NCBI GenBank assembly: GCA_035602385.1
Contig: DATNME010000008.1
Location: 19,441-83,440 of the forward strand
From: Candidatus Dormiibacterota bacterium
Lineage (GTDB): Bacteria > Acidobacteriota > Terriglobia > Acidiferrales > UBA7541
Length of the DNA: 64,000 nt
Direction: 5' to 3'
The notes below the pieces were generated by a model. It was not told the origin of the DNA, did no database searches, and saw only the letters and a list, made by a program, of their open reading frames with translations. Position numbers and translations under genes: made by a program. Below are positions 39,315 to 64,000 of the stretch, piece after piece. The stretch's first letter is position 1, and each line of letters starts with the position of its first letter.

Positions 39315-39609
39315 TCGAATTGCGCCTCTAACTGTAGTTGGATTTGGACACAAAGCCGCAGTTCAAGCGTATTGCTACACGCAGCTTGCTGGGCGTGCCT
39401 CATCCTCTCTTAACAAATCTGAGAAGTCGCCTGTCCTAAAGGTCAGGCGGCGGAGAGGTTAACGGGTGGGAATTCGCACTGCAGGTGGGCGCTTCGATCA
39501 CTGAAAAATGGCAGCCGGGGCACTTCGCTGAGGGGCCAAGGAACCCCGGCCTTATCCTGCCCGCCTCCGCAGTGAGCGAGTCAGGAATCTTTTTAAGCAA
39601 ACCGGTTGA

Positions 39610-39948
39610 CTAAACTTTTTGTTCTTCCTCGGTACGCAAAAATTCATAACGCTCGATGGCCGCCACCACACCGATCGCGCCTTCATCTCGCGATTCGGTT
39701 CGCTGTACACGGCCCAGACAACGGACCCGCACCGGGCCCGCAAGGGTAATTTCGTTTGGCAACGTCAGTAATATTTCGACAGCGGATCCTTCCTTCACAT
39801 CCTTGGAAAGAAAGAAGTACACTCCGCGAGAGCTGACGTCGCGGGATTCCGTGATCATTTCTCCGACTGCGGCTCCCGTCGTCCAACGGACGGTTAAGGG
39901 CAATCGCATGCTAAAGCGCTGGGTGGTGCGACGTTCTGAGCCGGTCAA
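39610..39948 (-). CDS. PilZ domain protein
   Basis: RxxxR (RTTQR) and DxSxxG (DVSSRG) c-di-GMP motifs. Confidence 0.85.
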   Translation of the reverse strand: MTGSERRTTQRFSMRLPLTVRWTTGAAVGEMITESRDVSSRGVYFFLSKDVKEGSAVEILLTLPNEITLAGPVRVRCLGRVQRTESRDEGAIGVVAAIERYEFLRTEEEQKV

Positions 39949-40163
39949 AGCGAACCTCCAATTTCAAAGTGCAAGTGTATCCGGGCGGGTCCCTGCTAAC
40001 AATAGGACTCCGGGTACAAAATTTTCCTCTTCATTTGAAGTACCGATGTACTAGAACGCCTTCGCCCCCCTGTAAAACAGTGACCTTTCGGGGATCGGAG
40101 CAAAATCGTCATTGTTTTGCCCATTCCCTTGAAATCCATATAAAATTGGCAGGTCACAACGCG

Positions 40164-40206
40164 GGGGCTGTAGCTCAGATGGATAGAGCGAGAGTTTCCT
40201 AAACTC
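40164..40206 (+). tRNA. tRNA-Arg(CCT) 5' half, truncated after the anticodon arm (att junction)
   Basis: GGGGCTG-TA-GCTC-AGATGGATA-GAGC-G-AGAGT-TTCCTAA-ACTC, then non-tRNA sequence with no variable region, T arm or 3' acceptor strand. Confidence 0.85.
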
Positions 40207-40253
40207 CTGTCAATAGTCAAAACAACCAATAAACATGCGCAGTTTCATAGATT

Positions 40254-40293
40254 TTGTACCCAAGTTGTACCCGTATACGCTAGAATGGGTACA
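40254..40293. promoter_or_regulatory. Integrase arm-type binding sites and int promoter region
   Basis: TTGTACCC at 40254 and 40265 (11-bp period), inverted GGGTACA at 40287; TAGAAT at 40281; RBS AGGAGG at ~40297. Confidence 0.55.
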
Positions 40294-40308
40294 GTCAGGA
40301 GGACATCC

Positions 40309-41439
40309 ATGCAACGAGGCGCAATCAAGCAACACGGCAAGTTCTGGGTCCTGAAATTTCGTGAGGACGTGCTCCAGAATGGCTCTCGGGTACGCAAGGA
40401 CGTGTACAAGAAACTTGCTCCCATCGGTCGTGAATACCAAACGAAAGAATCAGTCCAGCCGCTGGCCGATCTGATACTTGCTCCCTTGAACGCTGGCGTG
40501 CATCAAGCCCAGTCTGTGGATACTATCGAATCCTACCTTGAATCTTTTGTTGCTAAGGGCCAAGGCGGCAGTGGCCGCGAACTCCAGCAAAGCACGTTGA
40601 AGAACTATACGGTGATGCTCAACTTAGTTCGACCGCACCTGACACCGATCGAACTGCGGCAGGTTCGGACGCCTTACATCGATAAACTACTCCGGGCGGT
40701 CGCTGCGAACGACGGAGAAAATCGTCGGGCGCATACGACCTACAGGAACTTGAAAAACTTTCTGAGCAGTGCGTTTAAGTTTGCGGTCCGCGACGGTCTG
40801 GTCGAGTTCAACCCGGTCCGCGAAGCAGCTATCCCGGAGGGCGAAGAAGCGGATACGCATGCATATAGCCTGCGGGAAGTACGCACAATTATGGATGGAT
40901 TGAAGAAGCCCATGGCGAAGTCTCTGGTGATGCTGGCGACATTTACGGGCTTGCGGTCGGAGGAGATTAAGGGATTGCGGTGGGATGACTACGAAAACGG
41001 GGTATTAGACATCAAACGGGCTATTTCAGCAGGTAAGGTGGTCGAGCTTAAGACGAAGGCTAGCAAGGCTCCGGTGCCCGTTGTGAAGACCGTCCAGAAG
41101 ACGTTGGCGGCTCACTTAAAACAGAATTCAGGTGACGGCTACATCTTTCACGGCAACACTGGCGAACCTTTGGACTTGGAAAATTTCGCGCAGCGGGATA
41201 TCAAACCAGTACTGGAAAAAGCGGGGGTCGAATGGCACGGCTATCACGCATTCCGCCGTGGCTTGGCCTCGGTTCTCCACGAACTCGGGGTCGCGGAATT
41301 GACCATCAAACACATACTCAGACATTCTGATTCGGACGTCACAAGAAAGCACTACATAAAATCTTCGACCGAAACCAATCGTAAAGCACTTGAACTGGTG
41401 GAGAAACAGTATCTCAAGCAACGACTCAAGCGACGTTAG
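40309..41439 (+). CDS. int: Tyrosine integrase
   Basis: TFTGLRSEE (R), LKTKAS (K), YHAFRR (HxxR), LRHS...KHY (H,Y); N-terminal arm-binding-like KFWVLKFRED. Confidence 0.95.
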   Translation: MQRGAIKQHGKFWVLKFREDVLQNGSRVRKDVYKKLAPIGREYQTKESVQPLADLILAPLNAGVHQAQSVDTIESYLESFVAKGQGGSGRELQQSTLKNYTVMLNLVRPHLTPIELRQVRTPYIDKLLRAVAANDGENRRAHTTYRNLKNFLSSAFKFAVRDGLVEFNPVREAAIPEGEEADTHAYSLREVRTIMDGLKKPMAKSLVMLATFTGLRSEEIKGLRWDDYENGVLDIKRAISAGKVVELKTKASKAPVPVVKTVQKTLAAHLKQNSGDGYIFHGNTGEPLDLENFAQRDIKPVLEKAGVEWHGYHAFRRGLASVLHELGVAELTIKHILRHSDSDVTRKHYIKSSTETNRKALELVEKQYLKQRLKRR

Positions 41440-41710
41440 TCTCCATCCATTTCTCAACATCGGGCAGGCGGAAGCGCAAAAACTTACCGCACTTCAACGC
41501 GGGCATCGGCGGTCTTCCATCTTTGCGCTTACGCTTGCGGGTCAACTCATAGACGGTTGCGGTCGGCACTTGCAATTCTTGGGCGATTTGTTCGGGAGTC
41601 AAAAAATTAGATCTAACGAGTGACAATAGTTGTGGAATCTCTACAGGCTTACGACGGGGCTTTTTGTGGGAAGCAACTTCGGGAACAACAGGGGCATTCT
41701 TTTTCGACAT
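41426..41710 (-). CDS. Excisionase-like HTH DNA-binding protein
   Basis: FLTPEQIAQELQVPTATVYEL...KCGKFLRFRLPDVEKWM; convergent with int. Confidence 0.85.
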   Translation of the reverse strand: MSKKNAPVVPEVASHKKPRRKPVEIPQLLSLVRSNFLTPEQIAQELQVPTATVYELTRKRKRKDGRPPMPALKCGKFLRFRLPDVEKWMETNVA

Positions 41711-42204: not shown

Positions 42205-42651
42205 TCAGGTATTTGGTTTTTCCACCGGATACACGAGATGTTCCGGGTCCCACCACAGAACTTTCAAAACGTTGTGTTCCATGATTCCGAAGACCCGACT
42301 TTTCTGAGTGATACCCAAGGATATGACTGAATCCACGTCGTCTTGTCCCATCTCACGGAGACGTTTTTGTGCATCGGCGCAAAGCCTATCTCGGCTGACG
42401 AAGTGATTTCTATATCCGGCTTGGCACAAAATCTGCTTCCAAGTCATTGACTCGAAACTTGCGAAGCGTTGCTTCACTTGGAGCAACTCTCCTTGCTCGG
42501 AAGTGTGCCAACCAAAGGGCTCCACTGTCTCAAGCAGCGAGACTCGCCAACAGGGGTACATTTCCTGCCAGTCGTCACGAAACTGACTCTTGGGTGTTTT
42601 GGAAGTATCAACCTTGACTAGGGATTTTGGACCCTTCTGCTTGTTGGTCAC
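42205..42651 (-). CDS. Putative toxin paired with the Panacea antitoxin
   Basis: 4 bp downstream of the Panacea gene; FESMTWKQIL, RVFGIMEHNVLKVLWWDPEH. Confidence 0.6.
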   Translation of the reverse strand: MTNKQKGPKSLVKVDTSKTPKSQFRDDWQEMYPCWRVSLLETVEPFGWHTSEQGELLQVKQRFASFESMTWKQILCQAGYRNHFVSRDRLCADAQKRLREMGQDDVDSVISLGITQKSRVFGIMEHNVLKVLWWDPEHLVYPVEKPNT

Positions 42652-42655
42652 GGTG

Positions 42656-43087
42656 CTATTTGAGGCCGGAGTAGTACTCGACCATCGACGCGAGAGAAAT
42701 CACTCGGTCCCCGCGCTCGTCTGGCTGCATTCCCCTTCGCGCTTCGCGCCACGGTTCTTCCTGATGGGTCCGGTTGCTGAGTTCCTGTGAGGACATATGT
42801 CCGTAGTATTTCAGAACTTGGTCTACCGTTTCTTTTTCCGAAGAGGTGAGGTTCTTGGGATTTCCAATATCCCATTGCCCGACCTTGAAAGCTCCGCGGT
42901 GATACTCATAGAGTTCCCTAACCACGGGGCCGTTGGCCCAAGCTTCAATCTGCTCATTAAACAGAGGAGCATCATCCCACACCAACGACCACGCCTGCGA
43001 GTAGTAAACCAATTTCTGCAACTTCATCGCAGTGATCGGACTGCGCTTGCTGAGAATATAGGCCGCGACGTCGTGTACGTTTGCCAC
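42656..43087 (-). CDS. Panacea (DUF4065/SocA-like) antitoxin
   Basis: MKLQKLVYYSQAW, IEAWANGPVVRELY, LSNRTHQEEPW; upstream TTGACT-N18-TAGCAT promoter-like site. Confidence 0.92.
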   Translation of the reverse strand: MANVHDVAAYILSKRSPITAMKLQKLVYYSQAWSLVWDDAPLFNEQIEAWANGPVVRELYEYHRGAFKVGQWDIGNPKNLTSSEKETVDQVLKYYGHMSSQELSNRTHQEEPWREARRGMQPDERGDRVISLASMVEYYSGLK

Positions 43088-47090: not shown

Positions 47091-49292
47091 TTAAAGACGG
47101 AAACCGGGAGGCAGAATCTTCAACGCTGTTGCCCAGCGGGGGTCTGTTGATTTTTGCTGTAGTGTTGGTGCGTCTGGTGCCTTCGGTTGATAGTTTTGAC
47201 CACCGAACGTTCGCTCGTACTGAGCACGTTTCTCCGCCTGCTTTCGCATTTTTTCCATTTCATCTTCGTTCTCTGCGGGTGTTTTATTTTTATTCGGAGT
47301 GGCGGCGTAAATTCGAAATGTCGTGGCAATTTGGCTTAAACAATCGGCCCGGTCATCCTTCTTACGGCCCGAGCTGACTGCCCCGTCCAGTTTTTGCAGT
47401 TCAGCGAATAAAGCATCCACATAAGCGGAACTAGCGAATTTCAAACGGCCTACGCTTAGCAGCAATTCGAGTTCTTTGATTCTCAAAAATTTCGCATTCT
47501 TAACGTTCGATGGCTGGACAAAATAGACCGGCACACTGCATTCGTATTTAGCCCCGATCAAATTAATTTGTGTTCTGAGGCTATCTGACGTCGGGCCTTG
47601 TTCGATCAAAACGACTTTCGGATTGTATTGTCTTGTCAGCATAACCAGTCTATGCGCCAGCTCTGAGCCCCGTAGTCTGTCTGCCTCAATGTCCAAAACG
47701 CACATGCATTTTTCGTTTGCGCTGTTTTCATGCATGCGGACGATTCCGATAGACGTTAGGTCCGCACGTGCAGACATTGAGTACGCGACATCGACCGATA
47801 TAATATTGTCGCCTGCGGGGACTGCGCTTTGAGGGATACAGGCACGGGTCAAAACATCCGGGTCGAAATGCAGTTTAATTTCGTTTAAATCCGTAGGTAA
47901 AAACTCGCAGAGGTTTTGCATTCGGAAAAAACGATACCCGTTGGACTTGCTGGCTCGCACTTCTTTTTGCAGGAATTTCCAAGAAAGTCGTGAAGGGAAC
48001 AAAAGTTCGACGTCTTCCTCGACCAGTTGGGTCAGCTCTTTGTGTTTCGCATCTACTTTCACCGTCCACGCTGGGTCGATTCTATATTTAGCCGAGCCGT
48101 CTTCGGTTTCATCCGCCCGAGTGACCAGCGCTGCTGTCAAATCTTCCATATGCCACGGAGTAGAGCACATCGTGATGTAGCCTCCGGGTTCGACTAGCTT
48201 GTTTAAGAGGTCGTGTTTATCGATGGAGGCTTGACGCTGAATTTCATTGGCTGTTGTCAAATTGCTGACTGGGTCATCGTAGTGCAAGCAGTGACATCTC
48301 CTGCCCGCCGAAGAAACATCCATCGCCGTTGCTTCTACTGTCGCACCGATGAGTTTCAAATGGTCGAAGGGATTTTCTAAAATTAAAGAAGAGCCGTCGT
48401 CTGGTTTGATGCACATTTCCGGCATCAACCAATTGAAACGAGTACCTTCGCCGTGGACCTCAAATGTGCCGCGAAGATGTCTTACGAAATCACGCGCAAG
48501 TGGGCGAGTTTCCGTACAGAGCAAAATTTTGAGTGACGGGCAGCAGCAAACAGCAGTAACCATCCATCGGCGAGCGAACCAACTTTTGTACGCAGATCGC
48601 GATGCTATAAGGTTGAACGTTTTAACCGGGTCTTGAGCACCCAGCCATCTTTTTAAATCTTCCAACGAGTAACCGGGGTTCAATCCGACAGGGCTGAGTT
48701 TTGGAAAGAAGTCTCGCCAAACACCGTGCGGTTTTTCGTGGAAGTCGTCGCCTAGTATGTCCCGTCCGAGCAAGAACGCGTCCGTCTTACAAATCCTGCG
48801 AAGACGCAAAAATTCTGCGAAGGATGCCTCTTCGCGCCATGCGAAACTGAAATCATAAAGCGCGTACAATTCTTTTTTGCTGATAAGCTCGCCCACGACG
48901 TTTCCGTCGGCGAGTTCGCCCAGTACCTCTGGGATATCCAGTTCGGAAGCATTCTCGTCCTTCTCGTAGGCCAGCCGAGTCTTGACGACTCCGTAGCGAA
49001 AGAGATGCTGATTCTCGACCAGCTTTAAATTTTGGGTCGCGAGCGAAGCAAGCTCTAAACAGACTTCGAGGACTCGGGAGTTCTTAATTCCGCGCTCCTC
49101 GGTGAGAATTTGTATCTTGTCTTTCTTTGTTAACTCCGGCCCGTTGAATTTGATGTTCTCGCCTGACGACTTTTTTCGCTTCCGGTGTTCGCGCACCGCG
49201 AGTTTTACGCGTTCACGGGATTCCGGTGTACTTTGTTTCTTCTTAGGCGCAGTCTCTGAAGACACCAATGCGTCTTTCTGTGAATCTTCCAT
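47091..49292 (-). CDS. Terminase large subunit-like protein with long N-terminal extension
   Basis: Walker A-like ASRSAYKS, Walker B-like GRRCHCLHYDDP, motif III STPWHMED, RNase H-like nuclease ISVDVAYS...DDRADCLSQ. Confidence 0.85.
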   Translation of the reverse strand: MEDSQKDALVSSETAPKKKQSTPESRERVKLAVREHRKRKKSSGENIKFNGPELTKKDKIQILTEERGIKNSRVLEVCLELASLATQNLKLVENQHLFRYGVVKTRLAYEKDENASELDIPEVLGELADGNVVGELISKKELYALYDFSFAWREEASFAEFLRLRRICKTDAFLLGRDILGDDFHEKPHGVWRDFFPKLSPVGLNPGYSLEDLKRWLGAQDPVKTFNLIASRSAYKSWFARRWMVTAVCCCPSLKILLCTETRPLARDFVRHLRGTFEVHGEGTRFNWLMPEMCIKPDDGSSLILENPFDHLKLIGATVEATAMDVSSAGRRCHCLHYDDPVSNLTTANEIQRQASIDKHDLLNKLVEPGGYITMCSTPWHMEDLTAALVTRADETEDGSAKYRIDPAWTVKVDAKHKELTQLVEEDVELLFPSRLSWKFLQKEVRASKSNGYRFFRMQNLCEFLPTDLNEIKLHFDPDVLTRACIPQSAVPAGDNIISVDVAYSMSARADLTSIGIVRMHENSANEKCMCVLDIEADRLRGSELAHRLVMLTRQYNPKVVLIEQGPTSDSLRTQINLIGAKYECSVPVYFVQPSNVKNAKFLRIKELELLLSVGRLKFASSAYVDALFAELQKLDGAVSSGRKKDDRADCLSQIATTFRIYAATPNKNKTPAENEDEMEKMRKQAEKRAQYERTFGGQNYQPKAPDAPTLQQKSTDPRWATALKILPPGFRL

Positions 49293-53493: not shown

Positions 53494-53947
53494 TTGTTCG
53501 CCCCCGATAATAAAAAATTATTATTCCGAATAGTGTTTGAGCCCCCGACCCACCGACCTGCCCGAACTCATGTTCACGAGTTTTAAGCAAAAAATTTTGG
53601 TGAAGATAGAACGGAATTACTCACGTTCCGCCTTCACCAAGGAAGCGAAAAATTTGCGGTCTGGTTTAGTGTGCTTCCCTCATTGTCTGGATTCGCCGTA
53701 TCACTCAAGCGACCCGACAATTAAAAGTTGAACTTTCAAAATCGAATAGGGAGGGGTCGATTCCGCTCTCCTGCTGTACTCCCATAGCGGTTTAGATTAC
53801 GGCACTGATTTTCAATTACATGACAATAAAGGTACTTAGGAGCATTTTTCGACTCAAACGAGGTCGAAGGCTAGTCACTTGAGGAGGATTACCCCCCTCA
53901 TAGGCTCATGGTAAAGTACAGCACTAATTTAACCCTCGGGTCGAGAT

Positions 53948-55283: not shown

Positions 55284-55312
55284 AGCATACACACAACCCG
55301 GATGCCTGTCAA
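55284..55312 (-). promoter_or_regulatory. Sigma70 promoter of the RHH-GNAT operon
   Basis: TTGACA (55307-55312) - 17 bp - TATGCT (55284-55289). Confidence 0.8.
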
Positions 55313-55335
55313 GTCTTTTCTTTGGATTTTTGAGC

Positions 55336-55469
55336 AACGTATACACCGGCACAAACGTATACACCAGACGGCACGCCTTCCAAATCAATTTGTCCAAGCG
55401 GTGTATACACCCGGCGAAACGTATACACCTACGCTGGAGGTCCTCTCAGTCTGGGATGATGTATACACT
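55336..55469. repeat. Array of five GTATACAC boxes (operator-like)
   Basis: AACGTATACACC at 55336, 55354, 55418; GGTGTATACACC at 55400; GATGTATACACT at 55458. Confidence 0.85.
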
Positions 55470-55698
55470 AGAAGCCCTTGGGGGGCCCGTAGGAGCTGTC
55501 AAAATGGCCGAGGGTGAAATCAGGCGTACCGAGCTAGGAAGGACGCGCCAGCGGGCTGGAAAGCCGGTTGGCGGGTAGGTTGGTGGGAGTTCAGATCGGT
55601 AACGGCGGGCGTAACTTCGAAGATCGGACCTAACCGACGCAAAAATATGGTGTCAAAAGACCCGCCAATTTCACTTGAAAAAATTGCACTTTTCAAGT

Positions 55699-56077
55699 CG
55701 TACTGCCAAAACCTACCCCGTACTGACAAAACCTCGGGGCCCGCCACTCGCGGAGAGGTTCTGGAGGTTTTGTCAGTTGTCAGTGGGGGCCTCGTTTTTG
55801 AATTTATTCCTTCACAAGTAAAAAATAGGTTTTGGCAGTACGTGAAAGCGCGTTTTTTGACCTTTTTTACTAACTCGTTTATTTTGTTATAGATGATGTT
55901 TTTGATTTGATACATTCACATGGTACCCCGTACTGCCAAAACCCTAAACCCCCCCCCTCCACTTGAGGAGCCCGGTTTGGGGGGTAACTGCCAAAACCTA
56001 TTTGACTGTTTTTGGGGTCTAGAGCAGTTTTCGGGGTTTTCGAGTATTTTTGCATCGATCAGGGAGGTTTTGGCAGT
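55699..56077. repeat. Iteron-like array, putative replication origin
   Basis: Seven copies of ACTG(C/A)CAAAACC in both orientations around an AT-rich core (~55843-55925). Confidence 0.7.
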
Positions 56078-56559
56078 GTTGGTGCAAAACTAAAAATAAC
56101 CCTCCTCCAGGGTGGGCGACCGCGCCCCGACAGACCCGGGTACCCGTTTCCAGTAAATAGGTCTGGGTGTAAACAAAATGGGACGACTCGGTCGTCCGCC
56201 AAACCCCTTGGCTGGGGCGGTGTACTCCATACGTTCCCCGGGGATGTTGCTCTTCAAACTGTTTAGAACCAATGAGTTACACCGCTACGTGTTTGATCGC
56301 TCGCCTCGCGACCAGCTCGCGCAGACCCATCTAACCGGCTTGCCCCTTGCGCCGTCACAAGACCGACCATTGCAGCGTGACGATTTGTTGCAACTTCCTT
56401 GTTTTCATTGAGTTACGAGAGGTGCAAATTAACCGCGCATTAATATATTGCACCAATACAACACTTTGTTGCATTCTCGGAAATGTCTGTAAGTCGTTGA
56501 AAACAAAGGTTTCTGTGTTTGGTTACCCGATTGCTCAAAGAAATTCTTTATTTCTCTTT

Positions 56560-56865
56560 GACATTCTTTGAAAATGCCTCATTCACTCGGACAGGCGTCA
56601 CAACAGGCATACGTTCCATTTGTCCGACAGCGTAACCGAAGGTATCACATTGAGTTGTCCGACACTTGCTGTCAGGCTACGCGCCTGCAGCACCCCGCTT
56701 CAAGGCTCGCCAACAGGTCCGCATTGGCACGCACGAGCCCACCAGCGGCACGTTTCACCCGTTTTTGACTCTCACGCCCACTCACAGAATAATACACTAT
56801 CTCAAAGAATGTCCTTTTGACTCTCACGCCCACTCACAGAATAATACACTATCTCAAAGAATGTC
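56560..56865. promoter_or_regulatory. Segment bounded by 12-bp inverted repeats and containing promoter-like sites (candidate invertible switch)
   Basis: GACATTCTTTGA (56560-56571) versus TCAAAGAATGTC (56802-56813 and 56854-56865). Confidence 0.5.
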
Positions 56866-56866
56866 C
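56763..56866 (+). repeat. Perfect 52-bp tandem duplication containing TTGACT-N17-AATAAT
   Basis: TTTTGACTCTCACGCCCACTCACAGAATAATACACTATCTCAAAGAATGTCC twice. Confidence 0.92.
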
Positions 56867-56948
56867 TTGACGCGTTCATAAGATCATGAGAGCATCAAAG
56901 CAATCAGTTACTGGAAGACCAACCTCAAATTCATTTGGAGGAGAATCG

Positions 56949-57521
56949 ATGAGCGAACTGCAAGGACTGAACCCAACAGAGCGAAACAAGCTACTGGCAG
57001 CCGTCACAGACCCGCGAGACTTGGCGATCATCGTTCTCGGGCTTCGCCATGGTTTCCGTTCGAGTGAGATTGCAGACTTGAAGATGTCTGACGTTGACTT
57101 AATCAACAATCTGATTCGCATCCGCAGAGGCAAGGGTAGCGAAACAAACGACCACACGATAGAAGACGGATTGGAGGCATTGAATGAGCGTACCGTGCTC
57201 CTAAACGCGCTGGCAGCACGTCCTGTAGACAACAGCCCTTACGTCTTCGTTTCACAAAAGGGCGGCAAGCTTCATCGTTCGCAAATATTCCGTATCTTCC
57301 AGCAAGCCGCAACGAAGGCTGGATTACCCCGCCAGAAGCGCCACTATCACTGTGCAAAGCACACTGGCGCATTCAGCATGTTGAAGTCCGGCGCATCGGT
57401 TGCGGAGGTACAAAAATATTTTGGTTGGAAGAGTCTGGCAACGGTCGGAAGATACCTCGCAGTCAGCGACGAGACCGCGTGCAAAGCAGCCCGGAAGATG
57501 TTTGCCGTGGAGGCCGCATGA
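56949..57521 (+). CDS. FimB/FimE-like short tyrosine recombinase
   Basis: 190 aa, catalytic domain only; HGFRSSEI, RRGKGS, YVFVSQKG, HYHCAKHT, KYFGW, GRY; RBS GGAGGAG. Confidence 0.85.
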   Translation: MSELQGLNPTERNKLLAAVTDPRDLAIIVLGLRHGFRSSEIADLKMSDVDLINNLIRIRRGKGSETNDHTIEDGLEALNERTVLLNALAARPVDNSPYVFVSQKGGKLHRSQIFRIFQQAATKAGLPRQKRHYHCAKHTGAFSMLKSGASVAEVQKYFGWKSLATVGRYLAVSDETACKAARKMFAVEAA

Positions 57522-57727
57522 AGAAGAGTCCGAACAAAGGACAGCTAGATCAACCGAAAGGTCAGTCACAAGAACAGCGGCCGCCACGTCGCTCAACAAT
57601 CGATTTCGATGCTGAGTTGTACAACCGAATCAAGGCGATAGCAGACCGCGATGAGCGTGACTTTGGCTCGCAGGTTCGTTTCATTTGCAAGCAGTGGTTG
57701 GAACAACAGCCGAAGGAAGCAGCATGA
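57518..57727 (+). CDS. Arc/RHH-like DNA-binding protein
   Basis: RRSTIDFDAELYNRIKAIADRDERDFGSQVRFIC; ATGA coupling to the recombinase gene. Confidence 0.7.
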   Translation: MKKSPNKGQLDQPKGQSQEQRPPRRSTIDFDAELYNRIKAIADRDERDFGSQVRFICKQWLEQQPKEAA

Positions 57728-58033
57728 TGGGAAAGAAGAACACGACCGGTCACTTCGTTGTGGAGACATCGACCCCGACGAGAATCCTCTCGACGCGGAA
57801 CTGGAAGCAGGGCTGCCGAAAGAATATGTAATCGAACATCCAATGGCATGCAAACGCTTTGGTTTACCCACGGTGAGCAAACCGAAACACGAGGGACGAG
57901 GAGGCGTAACTGTTGGTTGCGCTGTCGGAGACCACGGAGGCCAAGAATGTATCAGTGCTTTCCTCGGTGAAACCAATTGGTCGCGCAGCAAGGTCGGCAG
58001 GGTTATCGAAGCAAGTGAAAAGAAGAGAGACAG

Positions 58034-58795
58034 ATGACAAAGAAAATCTGGACCGCCAGCATGATGGGCAAACGCGGCATTAAAAAGATGCTGGAGAAGT
58101 TCGATCAGGACCCAGTCAAAGCGCGGATGAAAATCGCCAAACAATCCATCGCAGTGACCCGTCACCGAGATAGAACATCTTCGCTATGCTCTGCGCTCCG
58201 TTTGGGTCACCGCAGCGGACAAAGATTCAATGCTGCCCGAGGACTACCGCGAACGCACCGCGCTTCAGCGCAGTCTGGCGAGAAAGTTGGGGGTCAAGTG
58301 ATGGACAAGAAAAAGCTGGAACGGTTGGAGCGCAAGGTTACACGTCGGGACGCACAAGTAGCCGTTCGCAACATAAAGACCGCGAGGTCAGAAAACCCAC
58401 TCGTGCTCGATGCCGAAGTCATTGGCGGAGGCATCATGCATAGGAAGCTCGTGAAAATGTCGGTGATGACCAACGAAAACCACACAGTGTGTTCAGAGAT
58501 TCGATTAGTCACGGAGCCAAAACCGCAACCGAGTCTACAGCAGAGAGCCGAAATCCTCGCGAAGACGGTACCGACATTCGGCTCAATGGAGAATTGCCGG
58601 AGAAACGTCGCGGAGTGCTGGAACATTGGCGATGCGCCAGTAGTCGAAAACGTCGACGAACTCTTCGATTCGGCATTATCTGCGCTCGGCTACGAGTCGG
58701 CGAAGCAGTCGTTCGATTTGTTTCGAAACCGCACGTTAGGAGAACCGAAGAAGCCGTCCGTTTGGAACCGCGACATTCTGAGGAGGACACGATGA
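58034..58795 (+). CDS. Hypothetical phage protein (may be two fused ORFs)
   Basis: ATGA overlaps on both sides; internal ATG near 58301. Confidence 0.5.
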   Translation: MTKKIWTASMMGKRGIKKMLEKFDQDPVKARMKIAKQSIAVTRHRDRTSSLCSALRLGHRSGQRFNAARGLPRTHRASAQSGEKVGGQVMDKKKLERLERKVTRRDAQVAVRNIKTARSENPLVLDAEVIGGGIMHRKLVKMSVMTNENHTVCSEIRLVTEPKPQPSLQQRAEILAKTVPTFGSMENCRRNVAECWNIGDAPVVENVDELFDSALSALGYESAKQSFDLFRNRTLGEPKKPSVWNRDILRRTR

Positions 58796-59085
58796 GGTTG
58801 AAAAAAGAGTATGGACCATCGCACGGGAGAGAAATGATTCGCGCTCTGACCGAAGCGGCACAGCAAATCAAGCGCGAGGAATTGGTGAAAACACTTCCAC
58901 TGAACTACACGTTGCGATACCTCTACTGCAACGGCATTTTGCCGACCGTCCGCAACTATCTTGCTTTGGAATATATGAGCGATGTTTCGGGCTTAGAAGA
59001 TGTCGGGCCGGAAGACCGCACTGAGATTGAAAGGCTCATTGAAGATGGTTTTCTTGTGGATACAAAATCGGAACGCGTGAATTAG
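58792..59085 (+). CDS. Hypothetical phage protein
   Basis: RBS AGGAGG; ATGA coupling. Confidence 0.6.
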   Translation: MRLKKEYGPSHGREMIRALTEAAQQIKREELVKTLPLNYTLRYLYCNGILPTVRNYLALEYMSDVSGLEDVGPEDRTEIERLIEDGFLVDTKSERVN

Positions 59086-59127
59086 GAAACACGGCAGCCG
59101 CCCTCGGGTAGAAAGCAGATGTGAGAA

Positions 59128-59403
59128 GTGGGAATAAATCGCAGAGCTTTTATTCATCAAATAGCGGTCGGTGCAACAGCAGCGGCTTTGGTGCAATTTG
59201 TGCCGATGGCGGAAGACGATTACTCCCGATTCCTCCGGACGTTGGGCGGCCGCGTGAGACACATATTATGCAGAGACAAAACGACGTTCAAAAGAATGCA
59301 AATTGATCCACCCGAGTATTTTGGCGGGGAACGCTTTCGGTTCGTCCGATTGTATATTGAAGAACACCAGAATCCATTTACGTGGTTTCACCCCGAGGCA
59401 TAA
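59128..59403 (+). CDS. Small protein with twin-arginine-like N-terminus
   Basis: MGINRRAFIHQIAVGATAAALVQF. Confidence 0.5.
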   Translation: MGINRRAFIHQIAVGATAAALVQFVPMAEDDYSRFLRTLGGRVRHILCRDKTTFKRMQIDPPEYFGGERFRFVRLYIEEHQNPFTWFHPEA

Positions 59404-59582
59404 ATCAACATCAGGAGACGAAAAGTGTTTGTAATTATTTCGAGTAGCGGCGCAGTTCGCAAAGTCTTCCAAGGCACCGACCCGGAGACGATTATCGAGT
59501 TGGCCTGCGAACTGCGTTGCGAGAACGACGCCAACTACCAAAGACGCATCGCGGAAGCGAGGCGACTGCTACAGGAGGACCT

Positions 59583-59810
59583 ATGCTCGTGAAATTTCAG
59601 CGACCGATGTCGGAGGAGGAGAGAACGCGGCTACACATCGACGCAATGTGGTTGCTATTCCTCCGCACGCCCGCGAGAGCTACGGGACCCGGCGAACCCA
59701 TTGATCTTGGCGAGATAGGAGCTGCGCCTGAGCGCAACTGGAGCAAGGCGACGCCATACTCCCCCGCGACGGCGAAGCTGCAAGAACCGACAGATAAGAG
59801 GCGTGAATGA
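59583..59810 (+). CDS. Hypothetical phage protein
   Basis: RBS AGGAGG; coupled to the next ORF. Confidence 0.5.
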   Translation: MLVKFQRPMSEEERTRLHIDAMWLLFLRTPARATGPGEPIDLGEIGAAPERNWSKATPYSPATAKLQEPTDKRRE

Positions 59811-60178
59811 CATTCGACACAACAAATCAATGGGTGCGACACATGCTCCACGTCTATAACAATCGCCGCCACGATGGAGAGATTTGGCTTGCGGTGCAGC
59901 GACCGGAGCCCGTAGTTTTGCCGTACCTTCCGGTGTATGTAGTCGAATTAAACGATTGCCCCAACGGCGCGGACGTGCTCGGCGAAGTCAGAACGAGACT
60001 AGTTGACGGCACGTTCATTCACGATATCGTGCCGGTGCAGCAACGTTCGGAGGAAGAGTCTCGACTCCTGCGGCAACAAGTGGAAGAGCATAAGAAGCGT
60101 CGAGCCAATTTGTATAAAGGTTATTCAATTGAAGAGCGGTTGAGAGATTTGCAAAACCCGGCAGAAAAGCAGATATAG
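59807..60178 (+). CDS. Hypothetical phage protein
   Basis: ATGA coupling; compact ORF. Confidence 0.55.
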   Translation: MTFDTTNQWVRHMLHVYNNRRHDGEIWLAVQRPEPVVLPYLPVYVVELNDCPNGADVLGEVRTRLVDGTFIHDIVPVQQRSEEESRLLRQQVEEHKKRRANLYKGYSIEERLRDLQNPAEKQI

Positions 60179-60205
60179 CCGCACCAGCGACAGACAGGAT
60201 TAGCA

Positions 60206-60433
60206 GTGCAGACGATTCAAGATTTGGTTTTCATGCAAAAAGTTGGTATTCGCATTGACGCGGACGACTTTGCCAAAGTTCTGGTGGCTGAGAACACGCA
60301 CCGAGATTTCTCGGCGTGTTTCGGATGCTGCGCAATAACTCAGGAGCAGCATCAACCATCGTGCCCACGATCAAGTGTGCTCTTCGAAGCAGATTGGTTC
60401 GAGATCGTTCGCGCCTGGGATGCGAATCGATGA
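60206..60433 (+). CDS. Hypothetical phage protein (Cys-containing)
   Basis: FSACFGCC...PSCPR. Confidence 0.45.
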   Translation: MQTIQDLVFMQKVGIRIDADDFAKVLVAENTHRDFSACFGCCAITQEQHQPSCPRSSVLFEADWFEIVRAWDANR

Positions 60434-60606
60434 ACCGTAGGACGTTGTTGGTCCTTCGTGATAGCACAACAGTTTGTGAAGCTGACTGCAGACCGAGATT
60501 GCTTAAATAGTCGGATTCAGAGGCGACCACATGTTTTGTCCGGTCAGACCGGAAGATTATCGTTGTTCCCGCTGCCACGGATGGCGAATTTTTGTCTTCA
60601 ACAAGG

Positions 60607-60762: not shown

Positions 60763-60855
60763 CGATAGGCTACCCCATCCCGGCGTCGAAGACGCCGCTG
60801 CTTGAATAGCCTAGCGAGCACTGACTTGCCGTTGGTGGGTTGAGTGCCCAGCCCC

Positions 60856-61173
60856 CTAGTTCGATAGCTGTGTCGCCGCCACCACGAACTCTGACAACCC
60901 TTCGGAGGATTCCGTAGGACGCGTGATGGTGACGCGGACTAATTCCCGTCCCTGAGCGTCCTGCCATCGCGCCAAGACTTCACAGGAGACGCAACCCAAC
61001 TGTGGATATGAGCTAGTCGCATCGAGAAGTTCAGTGGTGAAGATTGGATATTTGTCCTTCAAAACGTGACGTAACCCGTTGGCGTCCACAAACTCACACT
61101 CCACCCAACCTGGGAAGCGGTCGTCTACAAAACGCACGATTTGGACAGAGAGGTTCTGTGTGCTCGGGTTCAT
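60856..61173 (-). CDS. Putative RHS immunity protein
   Basis: 105 aa, starts 12 bp after the RHS stop. Confidence 0.6.
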   Translation of the reverse strand: MNPSTQNLSVQIVRFVDDRFPGWVECEFVDANGLRHVLKDKYPIFTTELLDATSSYPQLGCVSCEVLARWQDAQGRELVRVTITRPTESSEGLSEFVVAATQLSN

Positions 61174-61184
61174 ATATCCCTGAT

Positions 61185-64000
61185 CTATTCCAGTGGCTCT
61201 TTAACGATCTTTTGTAGTAGCTCTAGAAATCGTGCTGGTGACATCGGCTCGCGAGGTACTATCTCAAAGTGCCCCGGTTTGCCCACTTGCCTAATCATCA
61301 ATTCAGGCGGAACATCCCCAACCCTATTTATCTCTCCGAAGCGCGGTGGTATTCTTGACGGGTCGTCAAACAAGGACGGGCCGTGAGCACCTTCCCCGGC
61401 CCTGACGTTGCCATTAGCATCCAACTTATAGTCGCTGACTTGGTCGAACCAACCTCCACGATAGAGAGCGAAAGAGCCGCTTGCTGTTCGGTAAAAGTCT
61501 TTCGCGCTAGGCACCTCCTCGCAAATATTGAAACCGCCGCAAGTAGCGTTACGGAGCGCTGTATCCCACTGCCCATATAGCTTGTCAACCTGGGAAGCCG
61601 AAAAGTTCCTGAGGGCATCTTCTTGGTTAGAATTCTGGGCGACATTAGAGATGAGCCACAGTCGTTCGGTCGCAATTCTGGCATTGAACTCTTCTTGGGT
61701 TTCTTTGAATCCAAGGAAGTGGCCTAGACACCACCAGAAGCCTTTCTGTTCACCGCCACTACTGCAGTGGCCGGTTGGATCGGTCCGGTTCAATGGATTA
61801 TTGCCGACGTAGCTGTATAAGTTTAGGGACTGTGGATCAGACAGGGAGGCATACGGAACGGGGACGATGACATCGGACCAGTCCGGGGATAAGAAGCGGC
61901 CGATGTTGGAGGAGTCGTAGCGAGCACCGAAGTTGTCGAGGCCGGATTCGGAGTCGCGTTCTTTGCCGGTGAATTTGTAATTTTGGGAAACGCGCTTGCA
62001 GAGTTGCCGTTCGCCACCAAACGGATAATAGTCAGATTCGTCCTCGCCGGTTATCAGGCTGCTGTTGGTTGGGCAAGCGCTCATGGTGCCCAAAGCGTCG
62101 GTCACCATGCTGGCGGAGCCAAGATGGTCGGAGAAGTAATAGTGGACGGCGCTGGTGGAATCCTGCCGAGCGATGCGCTTGCCGTTGAAGAAAATGTACT
62201 CGTTGAAGCTGGCATTGTTGGTGTTGCCTGCAAGGTCGGTTTCGTCGAGAGGATCGCTGCCAGTTCCATACCAGTAGAGCTTGCCGTTGGATTTCTGCAC
62301 ACGTTTGCCATCGCCGTCGTAGGTGTAGGTTACTCCGCCCGTGGTTTTGAGATGGTTCTCGGCATCGTAGACGTAAGTCGCAACAGACGGAATGATGATG
62401 AGGTTGCCTGCTGCGTCGTAGGTGTCACCGCTGATCTGATTCTTGGTGGTCGTCAAAACGTTGAGGAGTTCTTCATTCACGCAGGTGTAACCGGAGATGC
62501 GACCGATGTTGAGCAGATTGCCCCAAGGGTCGTAAGTGAAGGCTTCGTCCCAACACGTGGAGCCGGAAGTGGAAGAGGTTTTTGCGGTCGCGATTCGGTT
62601 TAGGAAATCGTAAGTAAAGGATTGAGAGCGGTTGGTATCGCGATTGTTGGTAATGCTCGTGATGTTGCCGTTATCTGCGGTGCCGAGACTGAAATTGTAA
62701 GTAAAGTCGAGGATGTTACCCGAGGCAGCGTCCGCACAGGTAGATGGGGAAGAACCGCTGGACTTGACGGAAATTCGGCAGGGTTGCAACCGATTGTTAT
62801 AGAAGTACGTCGAGATAATGTTTGCACCGTTTGTGACGGAAGATAACGACCCTGTCGGCGCGTAGTGCGCGTTGGTGGCGTAGTTGATAGCGTTTGCCGT
62901 GTCTATTGCGGAAAGCGCGCGGCCTGCGGCGCTGGTCGCATATGTAATGATGCGGCCACTCGGATAGGTGAGAGTTGCCTGGGTCCCCGCAAGGTTGTTT
63001 TGAACTATGGTCGACTTTGTTACGCCGTTGGTGGTGCGGGCATCCGTGATTTTCCAGCCTACATTCGGAGTAATGTCGTAACCCCAAGCTTCCGCTCCGG
63101 CAGCGTCGCACATTCCGGTGCGCTTTCCGATGCCGTTGCCAATGGTGAGAACAGGCAGAGTGCAACCGGGAGGCGGTATCGCATCGTATCCATATTTTAC
63201 TATCGGCGTGGTGTCCGAAAAGGACTTCTGTGTCATACGGTTTAGGGCGTCGTACGCGTACGTGGCGGTAACGGTAGAAGTGCCGGTCTGATTGGGTGCC
63301 GGAGAAACCTTGGTTGTTAGGTTACCGTTGAGGTCGTAGGTGTACCCGGTAGTCCCGACTGTATAACTAGATGTGGGCGTCGCTGGGCATACAGCAGATG
63401 AATTCTCTGGATTACTTGTGCAAAGCAGGCGCGACAGCGAATCGTACGAGAAACTCCGGTTGCGCCATTTCGTTGTATCGGTGGTGCCGCCTTTTTGAGT
63501 GACGACTAGCAGGTTGTCAAGTGCGTCGTACGTGTATGCGGTGACTGCGGGATTGGTCCAAGAAACTGAAGTCCCTCCCGTGAGGGAGGAGCCGGAGGAT
63601 GCCGAAAACGAGCAGCCCGAGAAGTGCGGATCGCCGCCCGGTGTACAGGATGCTGACAAATTGTAGTTGGTGTTGTATCCAGAGGCCTTAGAGGTCAGCG
63701 AGACACCGCTGCCGCTCGCCGTAGCGTAGACAGGAGAGGAAGCGACGTTAAGGGCGGCCGCTACATTACCGGCGCAGGAACTCGCCGTCTCCGCGGGGCC
63801 GCCGCACCCAGGAGTAACGTTGAAACCGCCGACAGAAACGTTGATTGTTGTACTGTCGTACACCGTTACCCAACATGGCCCCGACGGGTTGGACGGACAT
63901 GCGTTGAAGGTTGCGCTGCGTTCGGAGCCAGAGATAGTAATTGATCCGGTGCCCGGTGTAGCACCGGCGGAGCCTGGGGCGGGCTCATCGACCTCGACCA
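61185..64000 (-). CDS. RHS/YD-repeat polymorphic toxin (5'-truncated by window) with Tse2-like C-terminal domain
   Basis: YD repeats; core YKFTGKERDSESGLDNFGARY...NLYSYVGNNPLNRTDPTG; frame stays open to the window end. Confidence 0.92.
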   Translation of the reverse strand, partial: VEVDEPAPGSAGATPGTGSITISGSERSATFNACPSNPSGPCWVTVYDSTTINVSVGGFNVTPGCGGPAETASSCAGNVAAALNVASSPVYATASGSGVSLTSKASGYNTNYNLSASCTPGGDPHFSGCSFSASSGSSLTGGTSVSWTNPAVTAYTYDALDNLLVVTQKGGTTDTTKWRNRSFSYDSLSRLLCTSNPENSSAVCPATPTSSYTVGTTGYTYDLNGNLTTKVSPAPNQTGTSTVTATYAYDALNRMTQKSFSDTTPIVKYGYDAIPPPGCTLPVLTIGNGIGKRTGMCDAAGAEAWGYDITPNVGWKITDARTTNGVTKSTIVQNNLAGTQATLTYPSGRIITYATSAAGRALSAIDTANAINYATNAHYAPTGSLSSVTNGANIISTYFYNNRLQPCRISVKSSGSSPSTCADAASGNILDFTYNFSLGTADNGNITSITNNRDTNRSQSFTYDFLNRIATAKTSSTSGSTCWDEAFTYDPWGNLLNIGRISGYTCVNEELLNVLTTTKNQISGDTYDAAGNLIIIPSVATYVYDAENHLKTTGGVTYTYDGDGKRVQKSNGKLYWYGTGSDPLDETDLAGNTNNASFNEYIFFNGKRIARQDSTSAVHYYFSDHLGSASMVTDALGTMSACPTNSSLITGEDESDYYPFGGERQLCKRVSQNYKFTGKERDSESGLDNFGARYDSSNIGRFLSPDWSDVIVPVPYASLSDPQSLNLYSYVGNNPLNRTDPTGHCSSGGEQKGFWWCLGHFLGFKETQEEFNARIATERLWLISNVAQNSNQEDALRNFSASQVDKLYGQWDTALRNATCGGFNICEEVPSAKDFYRTASGSFALYRGGWFDQVSDYKLDANGNVRAGEGAHGPSLFDDPSRIPPRFGEINRVGDVPPELMIRQVGKPGHFEIVPREPMSPARFLELLQKIVKEPLE

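What the first reader, a model, noticed from the sequence alone, without database searches (positions are those of the whole stretch)
40164..40310. tRNA-Arg(CCT) is split by the element and not repaired at the integrase end
Seen: a complete 5' half up to the anticodon arm, then directly arm-type repeats and the int gene, with no T arm. Known: tRNA-targeting elements normally supply a 3' replacement so the host-promoter copy stays intact. Inference: either the element supplies a 5' replacement at its far end, or the rare AGG-reading tRNA exists only after excision (regulated gene integrity), which would tie AGG decoding to element state.
Basis: partly seen in the sequence, partly recalled or inferred. 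Interest (0 to 1): 0.72.

Follow-up and report, generated by a model that had tools for sequence, protein, structure and literature searches.

The report
tRNA-Arg gene split by integrated element
A soil Acidobacterium carries a phage-like element inserted in the anticodon arm of its tRNA-Arg(CCU) gene, leaving only the dead front half of the tRNA beside the integrase; this reversed polarity is rare but known, and no rebuilt tRNA was found within 31 kb.

Summary
Window 40164-40206 is the first 43 nt (to standard position 42) of a genuine tRNA-Arg(CCT) gene. It runs straight into the arm and integrase of an integrated element. A conspecific contig (L008, 99.8% identical left flank) is the empty site: an intact tRNA, with homology to the window ending exactly at 40206. 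A sister element (integrase 90% identical) in a different Acidobacteria host shows the same split at the same nucleotide, so this is the normal attL of this integrase lineage. It is not an accident or a misassembly: two assemblers agree, depth is uniform, and there are no alternative joins. Islands that displace a 5' tRNA fragment are a known minority (159 of 3,919 in Islander). A more distant relative (L020) is a clear case of 5'-side replacement. There is no 3' half, second 5' half or core copy anywhere in the 31 kb downstream. The host's native right flank (a Ser/Thr kinase) appears absent from the 183-kb contig. All tested populations that hold the host flank, or part of it, without the element also lack the adjacent RHS locus. 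My best reading is a reversed-polarity tRNA integration. The distal junction either lies beyond the sequence I could reach or has been lost. Genuine unrepaired disruption remains possible (about 20-25%).

The parts
40117..40146 (+). sigma-70-like promoter candidate of the host tRNA gene (TTGCCC-18-TAAAAT). After integration it points through the orphan 5' half into int.
   Evidence: This is a consensus match only (1 found vs 0.5 expected). The sequence is identical in the empty site L008.
40164..40206 (+). Displaced host 5' fragment of tRNA-Arg(CCT), 43 nt, to standard position 42 (attL, host side).
   Evidence: Identical to the 5' part of the intact tRNA in L008. No tRNA is called here.
40190..40206 (+). 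Anticodon stem-loop, the presumed core and crossover region (GAGAG TTTCCTAAA CTC; inverted arms GAGTTT/AAACTC around CCT).
   Evidence: Homology to the empty site ends at 40206. The same 26 nt precede the junction in the sister element. The position of strand exchange within it is inferred.
40207..40308 (+). Element arm next to int (P' arm). It holds the conserved CTGTCAATAGTCAAAACAACCAATAAAC, then TGTACCC (40255, 40266) and GGGTACA (40287) repeats as candidate arm-type sites, and the RBS AGGAGG.
   Evidence: Conserved in the sister element while the host flanks differ. Binding function is inferred.
40309..41439 (+). Tyrosine integrase, 376 aa.
   Evidence: Pfam PF00589 9.6e-15 plus PF22022. 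phrog_1 2.4e-48. The exact protein is on the source contig. 679 homologues found.
41426..41710 (-). Excisionase-type HTH_17 protein, 94 aa.
   Evidence: PF12728 2.5e-7. phrog_66, excisionase/regulator.
42205..43087 (-). SocA/Panacea-domain antitoxin (42656-43087) with a neighbouring 148-aa ORF (42205-42651). Candidate toxin-antitoxin cargo.
   Evidence: PF13274 6.3e-21. phrog_8366 for the 148-aa ORF.
47091..49292 (-). 733-aa homologue of the large terminase subunit. It is the central marker of the element family.
   Evidence: PF17289 2.7e-6. phrog_38 6.9e-30. The only phage hit is the terminase of Tunturiibacter phage Tunturi_3.
49318..51717 (-). Primase-polymerase / DUF3987 helicase, 799 aa.
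   Evidence: PF09250 and PF13148. PHROG primase and helicase families.
55300..56880 (.). 1.6-kb non-coding region with iteron-like repeats (GTATACACC; TACCCCGTACTGCCAAAACC in direct and inverted copies) and a perfect 52-nt tandem duplication at 56763-56866. Candidate origin or regulatory region.
   Evidence: Function is inferred.
56949..57521 (+). Short (190-aa) tyrosine recombinase belonging to the same element.
   Evidence: PF00589 9.3e-28. Conserved position in relatives L019, L020 and L063. 34 related loci in Acidobacteriota MAGs.
57651..60486 (+). Block of small ORFs of unknown function at the distal side of the element.
   Evidence: Gene calls. Colinear with L019, with protein similarity to about 59055.
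60856..64000 (-). 105-aa ORF plus an RHS-repeat protein (1853 aa, running off the window). Strain-specific DNA contiguous with the element; whether it is cargo or a neighbouring island is unresolved.
   Evidence: Contiguous at equal depth. L006 spans 60208-61242. Absent from all element-free runs.

Best explanation
This is the attL junction of a site-specific integration. A prophage- or satellite-like element of an Acidobacterium inserted into the anticodon arm of the host tRNA-Arg(CCT) gene. The element carries a tyrosine integrase, an excisionase, a terminase-like protein, a primase-helicase and a second short recombinase, and spans at least 20 kb. The crossover region is the anticodon stem-loop, a natural inverted repeat. 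Identity between element and host ends 4 nt after the loop. The element's integrase-side arm therefore carries no tRNA 3' part, and this end is never repaired. The polarity is the reverse of the usual one. The host's own promoter and 5' part are left as a dead fragment fused to the int leader, and any functional tRNA must be rebuilt at the distal end from an element-borne promoter and 5' part joined to the host 3' half. I infer that this integrase lineage belongs to the known minority class of islands that leave a 5' tDNA fragment. In this particular genome the distal junction is not where synteny predicts (about 60.2-60.9 kb). Either the insert is a larger composite island extending beyond 71 kb, or the distal junction was lost secondarily. 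Shown: the split, its exact position, the empty site, recurrence in a second host, and assembly integrity. Inferred: strand exchange in the loop, arm-site function, read-through from the tRNA promoter into int, and the rebuilding of the tRNA at the far end.
For: The 5' fragment is exact. The empty site L008 has a 99.77% identical flank, homology that stops at 40206, and an intact tRNA-Arg(CCT). Integrase and excisionase lie directly adjacent. The sister element (integrase 90% identical) sits in a different host flank on 18 contigs from many samples, with the same break after ...TTTCCTAAACTC and the same conserved arm CTGTCAATA...AACCAATA. The int-att module is 77% identical at DNA level while the rest of the two elements has diverged. 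The junction is identical in MEGAHIT and Logan assemblies. Depth is uniform at 11-15x, contigs tile, and there are no loose ends. The class is known: 159 of 3,919 Islander islands have a 5' tDNA fragment (PMC4383910). A relative sharing the backbone (L020) is bounded by a perfect 44-bp repeat equal to tRNA-Ser positions -4 to 39, with the intact gene at one end. Runs that hold the host flank (X3, X4, X5, X6, X8, X10), and X9 and X11, which hold about 11-12% of the junction stretch's words, lack 44-64 kb; 40.2-41.8 kb was also checked and empty in X3, X4 and X5. GC stays near 50-51% to 71 kb against 54% for the host, consistent with a larger insert.
Against: No intact tRNA-Arg(CCT), no 3' half, no second 5' half and no second core copy exist from 40,207 to 71,173, although relatives are only 14-20 kb long. 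The empty site's right flank (a Ser/Thr kinase) has no near-identical full-length orthologue on the 183-kb contig. k=31 Logan contigs run unbroken through the 5' half in the source run and in two sister-element runs. Any element-borne 5' part must therefore share fewer than about 30 nt of exact identity with the host copy next to the junction. That is less than the perfect 44-47-bp blocks seen in relatives. The integrases of L020 and of the conventionally arranged L057 are only 22-25% identical to this one, so their behaviour is weak precedent. The distal junction of the sister element could not be retrieved.
Confidence: 0.5

Rival explanations
1. Genuine unrepaired disruption. The element's attP shares only the anticodon stem-loop with the tRNA gene, so integration inactivates tRNA-Arg(CCU). 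The gene exists intact only in cured cells or after excision. AGG would then be read by tRNA-Arg(UCU) wobble in lysogens. This could amount to regulated gene integrity acting on a tRNA.
For: The element carries no 5' half or other tRNA-like sequence over 31 kb. k=31 contigs pass through the 5' half unbroken in three runs, implying fewer than about 30 nt of shared identity. The same unrepaired attL is stably present in two host lineages and many samples. From general knowledge, E. coli tolerates loss of argW because tRNA-Arg(UCU) can read AGG; I did not test this here.
Against: This model also predicts a 3' half next to the element's distal end, and that is equally missing. Restoration is the near-universal rule for tRNA-targeting integrases (PMC4383910 and PMC12884075). 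The source sample shows no excised circle or empty site. AGG is used in host genes (4.2 per 1000 codons), and the element itself uses AGG more (7.1 per 1000), which fits poorly with an element that removes the dedicated decoder.
Confidence: 0.22
2. Locked-in remnant. Integration was followed by a deletion or rearrangement that removed the distal junction (attR) together with the tRNA 3' half and the neighbouring kinase gene. In this strain the tRNA gene is then permanently destroyed and the element can no longer excise. This concerns the state of this copy and is compatible with either design of the element family.
For: attR is absent where synteny with L019 places the element's end. The native right flank is not on the 183-kb contig, and no near-identical kinase from the source sample is in the protein collection. 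The locus is plastic: a 92%-identical relative has the kinase without the tRNA upstream (L011). No excision products are seen at 13x depth. An RHS locus, a known recombination-prone kind of gene, abuts the element.
Against: After a simple deletion, the DNA to the right should be conserved host DNA. Yet the RHS region is missing from all eight runs tested for it, and GC stays island-like to 71 kb. Absence of the kinase from the collection is weak evidence, because genes cut by contig ends are not all recorded; the L008 fragment itself was not returned.
Confidence: 0.3
3. Assembly artefact. The junction is a chimera created because tRNA sequences are shared among organisms in the metagenome.
For: The 5' half is a multi-organism repeat in the sample, with depth rising to about 177x over 40164-40203 from look-alike contigs. 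The window and the ENA record differ by one 53-nt repeat unit at about 53.6 kb.
Against: MEGAHIT (k up to 127) and Logan (k=31) give the identical junction. Only one contig in the source run has the exact 5' half; all look-alikes have at least 3 mismatches. The same junction type recurs in 18 contigs of the sister element from independent samples and assemblers. Depth is even and there are no loose ends.
Confidence: 0.03

Closest known systems
Genomic islands with a displaced 5' tDNA fragment (Islander database class; Hudson, Lau & Williams 2015, PMC4383910)
   Same: A tyrosine integrase element sits inside a tRNA gene. The host 5' portion is left as a co-oriented fragment upstream of the island, with an anticodon-centred crossover. 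The class is documented at 159 of 3,919 islands. Relative L020 is a clean example.
   Different: Membership requires the regenerated tRNA at the other end, and that was not found within 31 kb. Here the integrase lies beside the dead fragment, whereas in L020 it lies beside the regenerated gene. The shared identity next to the junction appears to be under 30 nt.
Classical anticodon-loop tRNA integration with 3' replacement
   Same: Same type of core (anticodon stem-loop symmetry), same enzyme family and excisionase. In L057-L061 the geometry is the same, with host tRNA then int on one strand.
   Different: Those elements carry the tRNA's 3' part between core and int, so the gene beside int is intact. 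Here that segment is absent and the homology stops 4 nt after the loop.
Regulated gene integrity / active lysogeny (e.g. skin-sigK, phi10403S-comK; Mageeney et al. 2020). Recalled from general knowledge; these papers were not held in the library.
   Same: An integrase element splits a gene without supplying a replacement at the junction seen here. Excision would restore the gene exactly, as the empty-site allele shows.
   Different: Known cases concern protein-coding genes and have demonstrated conditional excision. Here the target is a tRNA, non-restoration is unproven, and no excision product was detected.
Prophages at E. coli argW, the tRNA-Arg(CCU) gene. Recalled from general knowledge, not tested here.
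   Same: Same isoacceptor used as attachment site. The gene reads the rare AGG codon and is dispensable in E. coli.
   Different: As I recall, those elements use the 3' end and regenerate the gene. The integrase here has no close relative among sequenced phages (best 28% identity).

Membership tests
tRNA-targeting integrative element (tyrosine integrase) | Encodes a tyrosine recombinase next to the junction. | tested here: met
   PF00589 9.6e-15 and phrog_1 2.4e-48. int starts 103 nt after the junction.
tRNA-targeting integrative element (tyrosine integrase) | The junction lies inside a bona fide tRNA gene, shown by an uninterrupted allele. | tested here: met
   L008 has a 99.77% identical flank and an intact tRNA-Arg(CCT) by ARAGORN. 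Homology ends at window 40206.
tRNA-targeting integrative element (tyrosine integrase) | The insert is sporadic among related strains. | tested here: met
   44-64 kb is absent from eight runs: six with demonstrated host-flank contigs, and X9 and X11, which hold only about 11-12% of the junction words.
tRNA-targeting integrative element (tyrosine integrase) | A direct repeat of the att identity block lies at the other end (attR). | tested here: not met
   No copy of the 17-nt core (up to 3 mismatches), of the 5' half or of the 3' half lies between 40,207 and 71,173. The contig beyond 71 kb could not be read.
Island with displaced 5' tDNA fragment (5'-side replacement) | A 5' end fragment of the tDNA lies upstream of the island, co-oriented with the gene. 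| tested here: met
   40164-40206 on the + strand, followed by the island.
Island with displaced 5' tDNA fragment (5'-side replacement) | A regenerated full-length tDNA at the distal end, with its 5' part (and promoter) supplied by the island. | tested here: inconclusive
   Not present within 31 kb. The distal ends of this and the sister element lie outside the retrievable sequence. k=31 contig continuity limits any shared block to under 30 nt.
Regulated gene integrity | The target gene is not restored in the integrated state. | tested here: inconclusive
   It is not restored at attL. The state at the distal junction is unknown.
Regulated gene integrity | Conditional, precise excision restores the gene. 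| not testable with these tools
   Only assembled contigs of a bulk soil sample were available, and no attB or attP form appears in them.

The most novel reading that the evidence does not exclude
This integrase lineage, found in at least two Acidobacteria host lineages, integrates into the anticodon arm of tRNA-Arg(CCU) without rebuilding the gene at either end. Lysogens would then lack the dedicated AGG decoder and regain it only on excision. That would be a reversible, element-controlled switch on a tRNA gene, i.e. regulated gene integrity applied to translation capacity.
Probability: 0.2. Interest if true: 0.8.

Novelty: new member of a known kind. Interest (0 to 1): 0.42.

Why it matters
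If the ordinary reading holds, this adds a well-documented integrase lineage from uncultivated Acidobacteria to the small class of elements that replace the 5' rather than the 3' part of a tRNA gene. Documentation comprises an empty site, an exact break point, a conserved arm and two host lineages. Such elements must carry a tRNA promoter, and they place the host's tRNA promoter in front of int. That is useful for island-finding software, which mostly assumes 3' fragments, and for integrase bioprospecting. If the tRNA is not rebuilt, this would be an unusual natural case of a mobile element switching off a tRNA gene, linking decoding of a rare codon to the state of the element. Either way the locus gives a precise attB sequence for an Acidobacteria integrase.

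Tried and rejected
1. A second 5' half, anticodon-arm core or 3' half in the window or in the +7 kb beyond it. I used pattern searches, a k-mer scan, repeat finding, ARAGORN, permissive Rfam and Smith-Waterman against shuffles. Nothing rose above background. The CCCAGCCCC match at about 60.85 kb is chance.

2. A split tRNA joined in trans, or an element-encoded substitute tRNA. Rejected, because no tRNA-like sequence exists in the element.

3. Exact-pattern scans of JGI metagenomes (leader plus tRNA start; T arm plus acceptor) and of GTDB genomes (3' half). All returned 0 hits.

4. IMG/VR scans with the integrase, the arm DNA, the junction motif and a profile of the 733-aa protein. None found relatives. 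The short-recombinase profile found only two distant loci.

5. The 9.3-kb contig in the source run with a TATAAT box before a look-alike 5' half. Its upstream sequence is not in the element, so it is another organism's tRNA.

6. The idea that the second integrase at 56.9 kb starts a second, tandem element. Rejected, because relatives L019, L020 and L063 keep the same short recombinase inside one element, and no att repeat separates the two parts.

7. Locating attR through the empty site's right-flank kinase. The only near-identical proteins come from other samples.

8. Using ENA, Logan or JGI loci as references for read laying or run finding, and looking up a sister-element protein directly.

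9. Williams 2002 and Mageeney 2020 are not in the held library.
Full report
**1. The observation.**
Window 40164-40206 reads GGGGCTG-TA-GCTC-AGATGGATA-GAGC-G-AGAGT-TTCCTAA-ACTC. That is an acceptor 5' strand, a D arm, an anticodon stem, a 7-nt loop with anticodon CCT, and four of the five nucleotides of the returning stem strand.

The sequence then continues CTGTCAATAGTCAAAACAACC... It carries two direct TGTACCC repeats and one inverted copy (40255, 40266, 40287), an AGGAGG ribosome-binding site, and a 376-aa tyrosine integrase starting at 40309.

ARAGORN and Rfam find only tRNA-Pro at 17671 in the whole window. They find nothing here, even at E<=10. The 5' part is unique in the window, with 0 matches expected by shuffling. 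There is no T arm, no CAGCCCC-terminated 3' half and no second anticodon arm in the window.

**2. Provenance and assembly integrity.**
The window is part of a 183,858-bp MEGAHIT contig from a soil metagenome (ERZ923641 / ERR1700687, PRJEB8420). Window position 40309 corresponds to record position 65776.

An independent k=31 Logan assembly of the same run gives a 19.7-kb contig with the identical junction. In the source run, the contigs across attL, across the middle of the element and across its distal side have depths of 13.2, 14.7, 11 and 12.5. They tile with k-1 overlaps and show no loose ends or alternative joins.

Only one contig in that run has the exact 5' half. Ten look-alikes have at least 3 mismatches and belong to other organisms. 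Misassembly is therefore very unlikely. The window differs from the ENA record by one 53-nt repeat unit near 53.6 kb.

**3. The empty site.**
I looked up the exact PilZ-domain protein encoded 216 bp left of the fragment. This returned a 3-kb contig from another sample of the same study (L008). L008 is 99.77% identical to window 38444-40206, and the homology stops exactly at 40206.

L008 continues TAGGTCGGGAGTTCGAGCCTCCCCAGCCCCACCA. This completes a tRNA-Arg(CCT) that ARAGORN calls. About 180 bp further on lies a Ser/Thr protein kinase gene. The three-way alignment of window, L008 and the sister element shows the break point cleanly.

Runs from other studies also hold the host left flank at 99-100% identity but have zero depth over the element. 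In one of them (X6), a contig runs from the host flank through the 5' half into a 3' half with a different T stem, GCCGG/CCGGC.

**4. What was inserted.**
From 40207 rightwards, GC drops from about 55% to about 50%. The genes are:
- an integrase and an HTH_17 excisionase;
- a SocA/Panacea antitoxin pair;
- unknown small ORFs;
- a 733-aa large-terminase homologue (phrog_38, 7e-30), whose only phage hit is the terminase of an Acidobacteria phage;
- a primase-polymerase/DUF3987 helicase;
- an RHH protein;
- a 1.6-kb iteron-rich non-coding region;
- a 190-aa tyrosine recombinase;
- a block of small ORFs running to about 60.5 kb.

Distant relatives (L019, L020, L063) keep the short recombinase inside the same element. 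It is therefore not the start of a second element. A profile of the short recombinase found 34 loci, almost all in Acidobacteriota MAGs (Acidoferrales/Terriglobia). That identifies the host lineage.

To the right follow a 105-aa ORF and a 1853-aa RHS protein, then DUF72, YuaX-like and peptidase-like genes out to window-equivalent 71.2 kb. These are contiguous with the element at equal depth, and in a second sample as well (L006). GC stays at 50-51% across them. All eight runs I tested for this region lack everything from 44 to 64 kb, RHS included. Six of those runs hold contigs of the host flank; X9 and X11 hold only about 11-12% of the junction stretch's words.

**5. The split is a property of the integrase lineage.**
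The integrase has 679 homologues. The closest, P0122 (90% identity), lies on 18 contigs up to 343 kb long, from Logan, JGI, ENA and NCBI. These contigs carry a sister element with the same gene order, inserted next to a TonB-dependent receptor gene.

Directly upstream of its int is GGGGCCGTAGCTCAACTGGATAGAGCGAGAGTTTCCTAAACTC|CTGTCAATAATAAAAATAACCAATAG.... This is a host-specific 5' half of tRNA-Arg(CCT), with three differences from the window's copy. It is broken at the same nucleotide and followed by the same conserved arm. ARAGORN calls no tRNA there.

The int-att module is 77% identical in DNA between the two elements, while the rest has diverged; the terminase homologues are 45% identical. 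The unrepaired integrase end is therefore the regular attL of this lineage.

**6. Where is the other half?**
It is nowhere in the sequence I could reach. Neither version of the 3' half occurs between 40,207 and 71,173. Nor does a second 5' half, nor the 17-nt core with up to 3 mismatches. Local alignment scores do not exceed those of shuffled queries.

I searched the empty site's right-flank kinase against 5.8 billion proteins. Only two near-identical proteins (98%) came back, both from other samples. Everything else is 90% identical or less, and none of the listed hits is recorded on a 183,858-bp contig, so a full-length orthologue appears to be absent from it. This evidence is indirect, because genes cut by contig ends are not all recorded.

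A 92%-identical relative has the kinase without the tRNA upstream, so the locus is plastic (L011). Exact-pattern scans of JGI metagenomes and GTDB genomes for the leader plus tRNA and for the 3' half found nothing. The distal end of the sister element lies beyond the flanks I could fetch.

**7. Comparison with relatives and with the literature.**
Islander mapped 3,919 tRNA/tmRNA islands. Of these, 3,760 leave a 3' fragment and 159 leave a 5' fragment. Its configuration filter explicitly expects 5' fragments upstream of the regenerated gene (PMC4383910). Reversed polarity is thus a known minority mode.

Elements sharing this backbone use both modes:
- L020 is bounded by a perfect 44-bp repeat equal to tRNA-Ser(GCT) positions -4 to 39, with the intact gene abutting the int stop codon. 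This is 5' replacement.
- L054 duplicates tRNA-Thr positions 30-76, and L026 duplicates tRNA-Ser positions 70-91. Both are 3' replacement.
- L057-L061, whose terminase homologue is the closest to the window's (61%), have the same geometry as the window (tRNA then int on one strand) but with an intact tRNA-Ser(CGA) 85 bp before int.

The integrases of these relatives are only 22-36% identical to the window's. They show what the element family can do. They do not show what this particular integrase does. No sequenced phage has a close relative of it (best 28%).

**8. Weighing the explanations.**
The near-universal restoration of tRNA targets and the existence of the 5'-fragment class favour a rebuilt tRNA at the distal junction.

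Against that, k=31 contigs pass unbroken through the 43-nt 5' half in the source run and in two sister-element runs. This means no second locus in those genomes shares about 30 nt or more with the host copy up to the junction. An element-borne 5' part would have to differ from each current host within that stretch. The two hosts do differ from each other 27-30 nt upstream, so this is possible, but it is an extra assumption.

One sister-element Logan contig (L018) begins exactly 30 nt before the junction. That could reflect either an empty-site subpopulation or another organism's tRNA, so it does not discriminate.

The missing distal junction is equally awkward for the "no repair" model. It points instead to a composite island larger than 31 kb or to secondary loss of attR. 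The fact that every run tested for it also lacks the RHS region, together with the low GC out to 71 kb, leans towards a larger island. The apparent absence of the kinase from the contig leans towards rearrangement.

AGG is rare in host genes (4.2 per 1000 codons) and somewhat more frequent in the element (7.1 per 1000). This offers no support for a decoding switch.

My estimates are:
- about 0.5 for reversed-polarity integration with 5' replacement as the design;
- about 0.2-0.25 for true non-restoration;
- about 0.3 that this particular copy has lost its distal junction, whichever design applies;
- about 0.03 for an artefact.

**9. Mechanism.**
Shown: the break lies after standard position 42, and identity with the host ends there.

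Inferred:
- Int binds the inverted stem arms (GAGTTT/AAACTC) as core sites and exchanges strands within the 7-nt loop TTCCTAA.
- The TGTACCC repeats between core and int, conserved in the sister element, act as arm-type sites.
- The HTH_17 protein directs excision.

One consequence of this polarity follows from the sequence. The host's promoter-like element (TTGCCC-18-TAAAAT, 40117-40146) and the orphan 5' half now sit 103 nt upstream of int on the same strand, with no predicted terminator between them. In the integrated state int may therefore be transcribed from the tRNA promoter. This is untested.

**10. Verdict.**
The feature is best filed as a new member of a known but uncommon kind, a tRNA island with a displaced 5' fragment. 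A genuinely open question remains about whether, and where, the tRNA is rebuilt.

Noticed in passing
Run X6 contig over window 40026-40206 compared with L008 1238-1314: Populations with identical left flank and 5' half carry two different tRNA 3' halves with compensatory T-stem changes (GCCGG/CCGGC vs GGGAG/CTCCC). This could be the footprint of a conventional 3'-replacing element at the same anticodon-loop site. If so, the X6 contig may be another element's attL and not an empty site.
   Followed up: partly
window 56763-56866: A perfect 52-nt tandem duplication lies immediately upstream of the short recombinase gene. The Logan contigs break here.
   Followed up: partly
window 53566-53628: The ENA record of the same contig has one more copy of a 53-nt repeat unit than the window. 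This is either copy-number variation or assembler ambiguity.
   Followed up: partly
window 55300-56100: The region is rich in iteron-like repeats. GTATACACC occurs four times (55339-55429). TACCCCGTACTGCCAAAACC occurs in direct copies, with partial inverted copies (GGTTTTGGCAGT, GGTTTTGTCAGT), across 55694-56080. This is a candidate replication origin or operator array of the element.
   Followed up: no
window 56949-57521; loci L019-L056: A 190-aa tyrosine recombinase lacking the N-terminal domains is conserved inside this element family. Relatives of about 35% identity occur in 34 loci, almost all Acidobacteriota MAGs, next to many different tRNA genes. Its role is unknown; dimer resolution or inversion are possibilities.
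   Followed up: partly
L020 2015-2110 and 19775-19818: A 17.7-kb relative integrated in tRNA-Ser(GCT) is bounded by a perfect 44-bp repeat of the tRNA's 5' part. The regenerated gene starts 18 bp after the integrase stop codon. It is a clean example of 5'-side replacement in which the tRNA promoter must lie within or behind int.
   Followed up: partly
window 42205-43087: A SocA/Panacea-domain antitoxin lies next to a 148-aa ORF (phrog_8366). This is a candidate toxin-antitoxin or defence module carried by the element.
   Followed up: no
window 60856-64000 and L004 4428-10318: An 1853-aa RHS-repeat protein with a small downstream ORF (a candidate immunity protein) is contiguous with the element. 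It is absent from all eight runs tested for this region.
   Followed up: partly
window 40012-40018: A fourth copy of the TGTACCC/GGGTACA motif lies on the host side, 150 bp upstream of the tRNA. It is also present in the empty site L008. It may be chance (roughly 1% expectation for the 8-mer in a 300-bp stretch) or a host-side arm-like site.
   Followed up: partly
L011 (ERR1700738 contig): In a relative 92% identical over the kinase region, the kinase gene has a different upstream neighbour and no tRNA. The tRNA-kinase interval is therefore a rearrangement hot spot in this group.
   Followed up: partly
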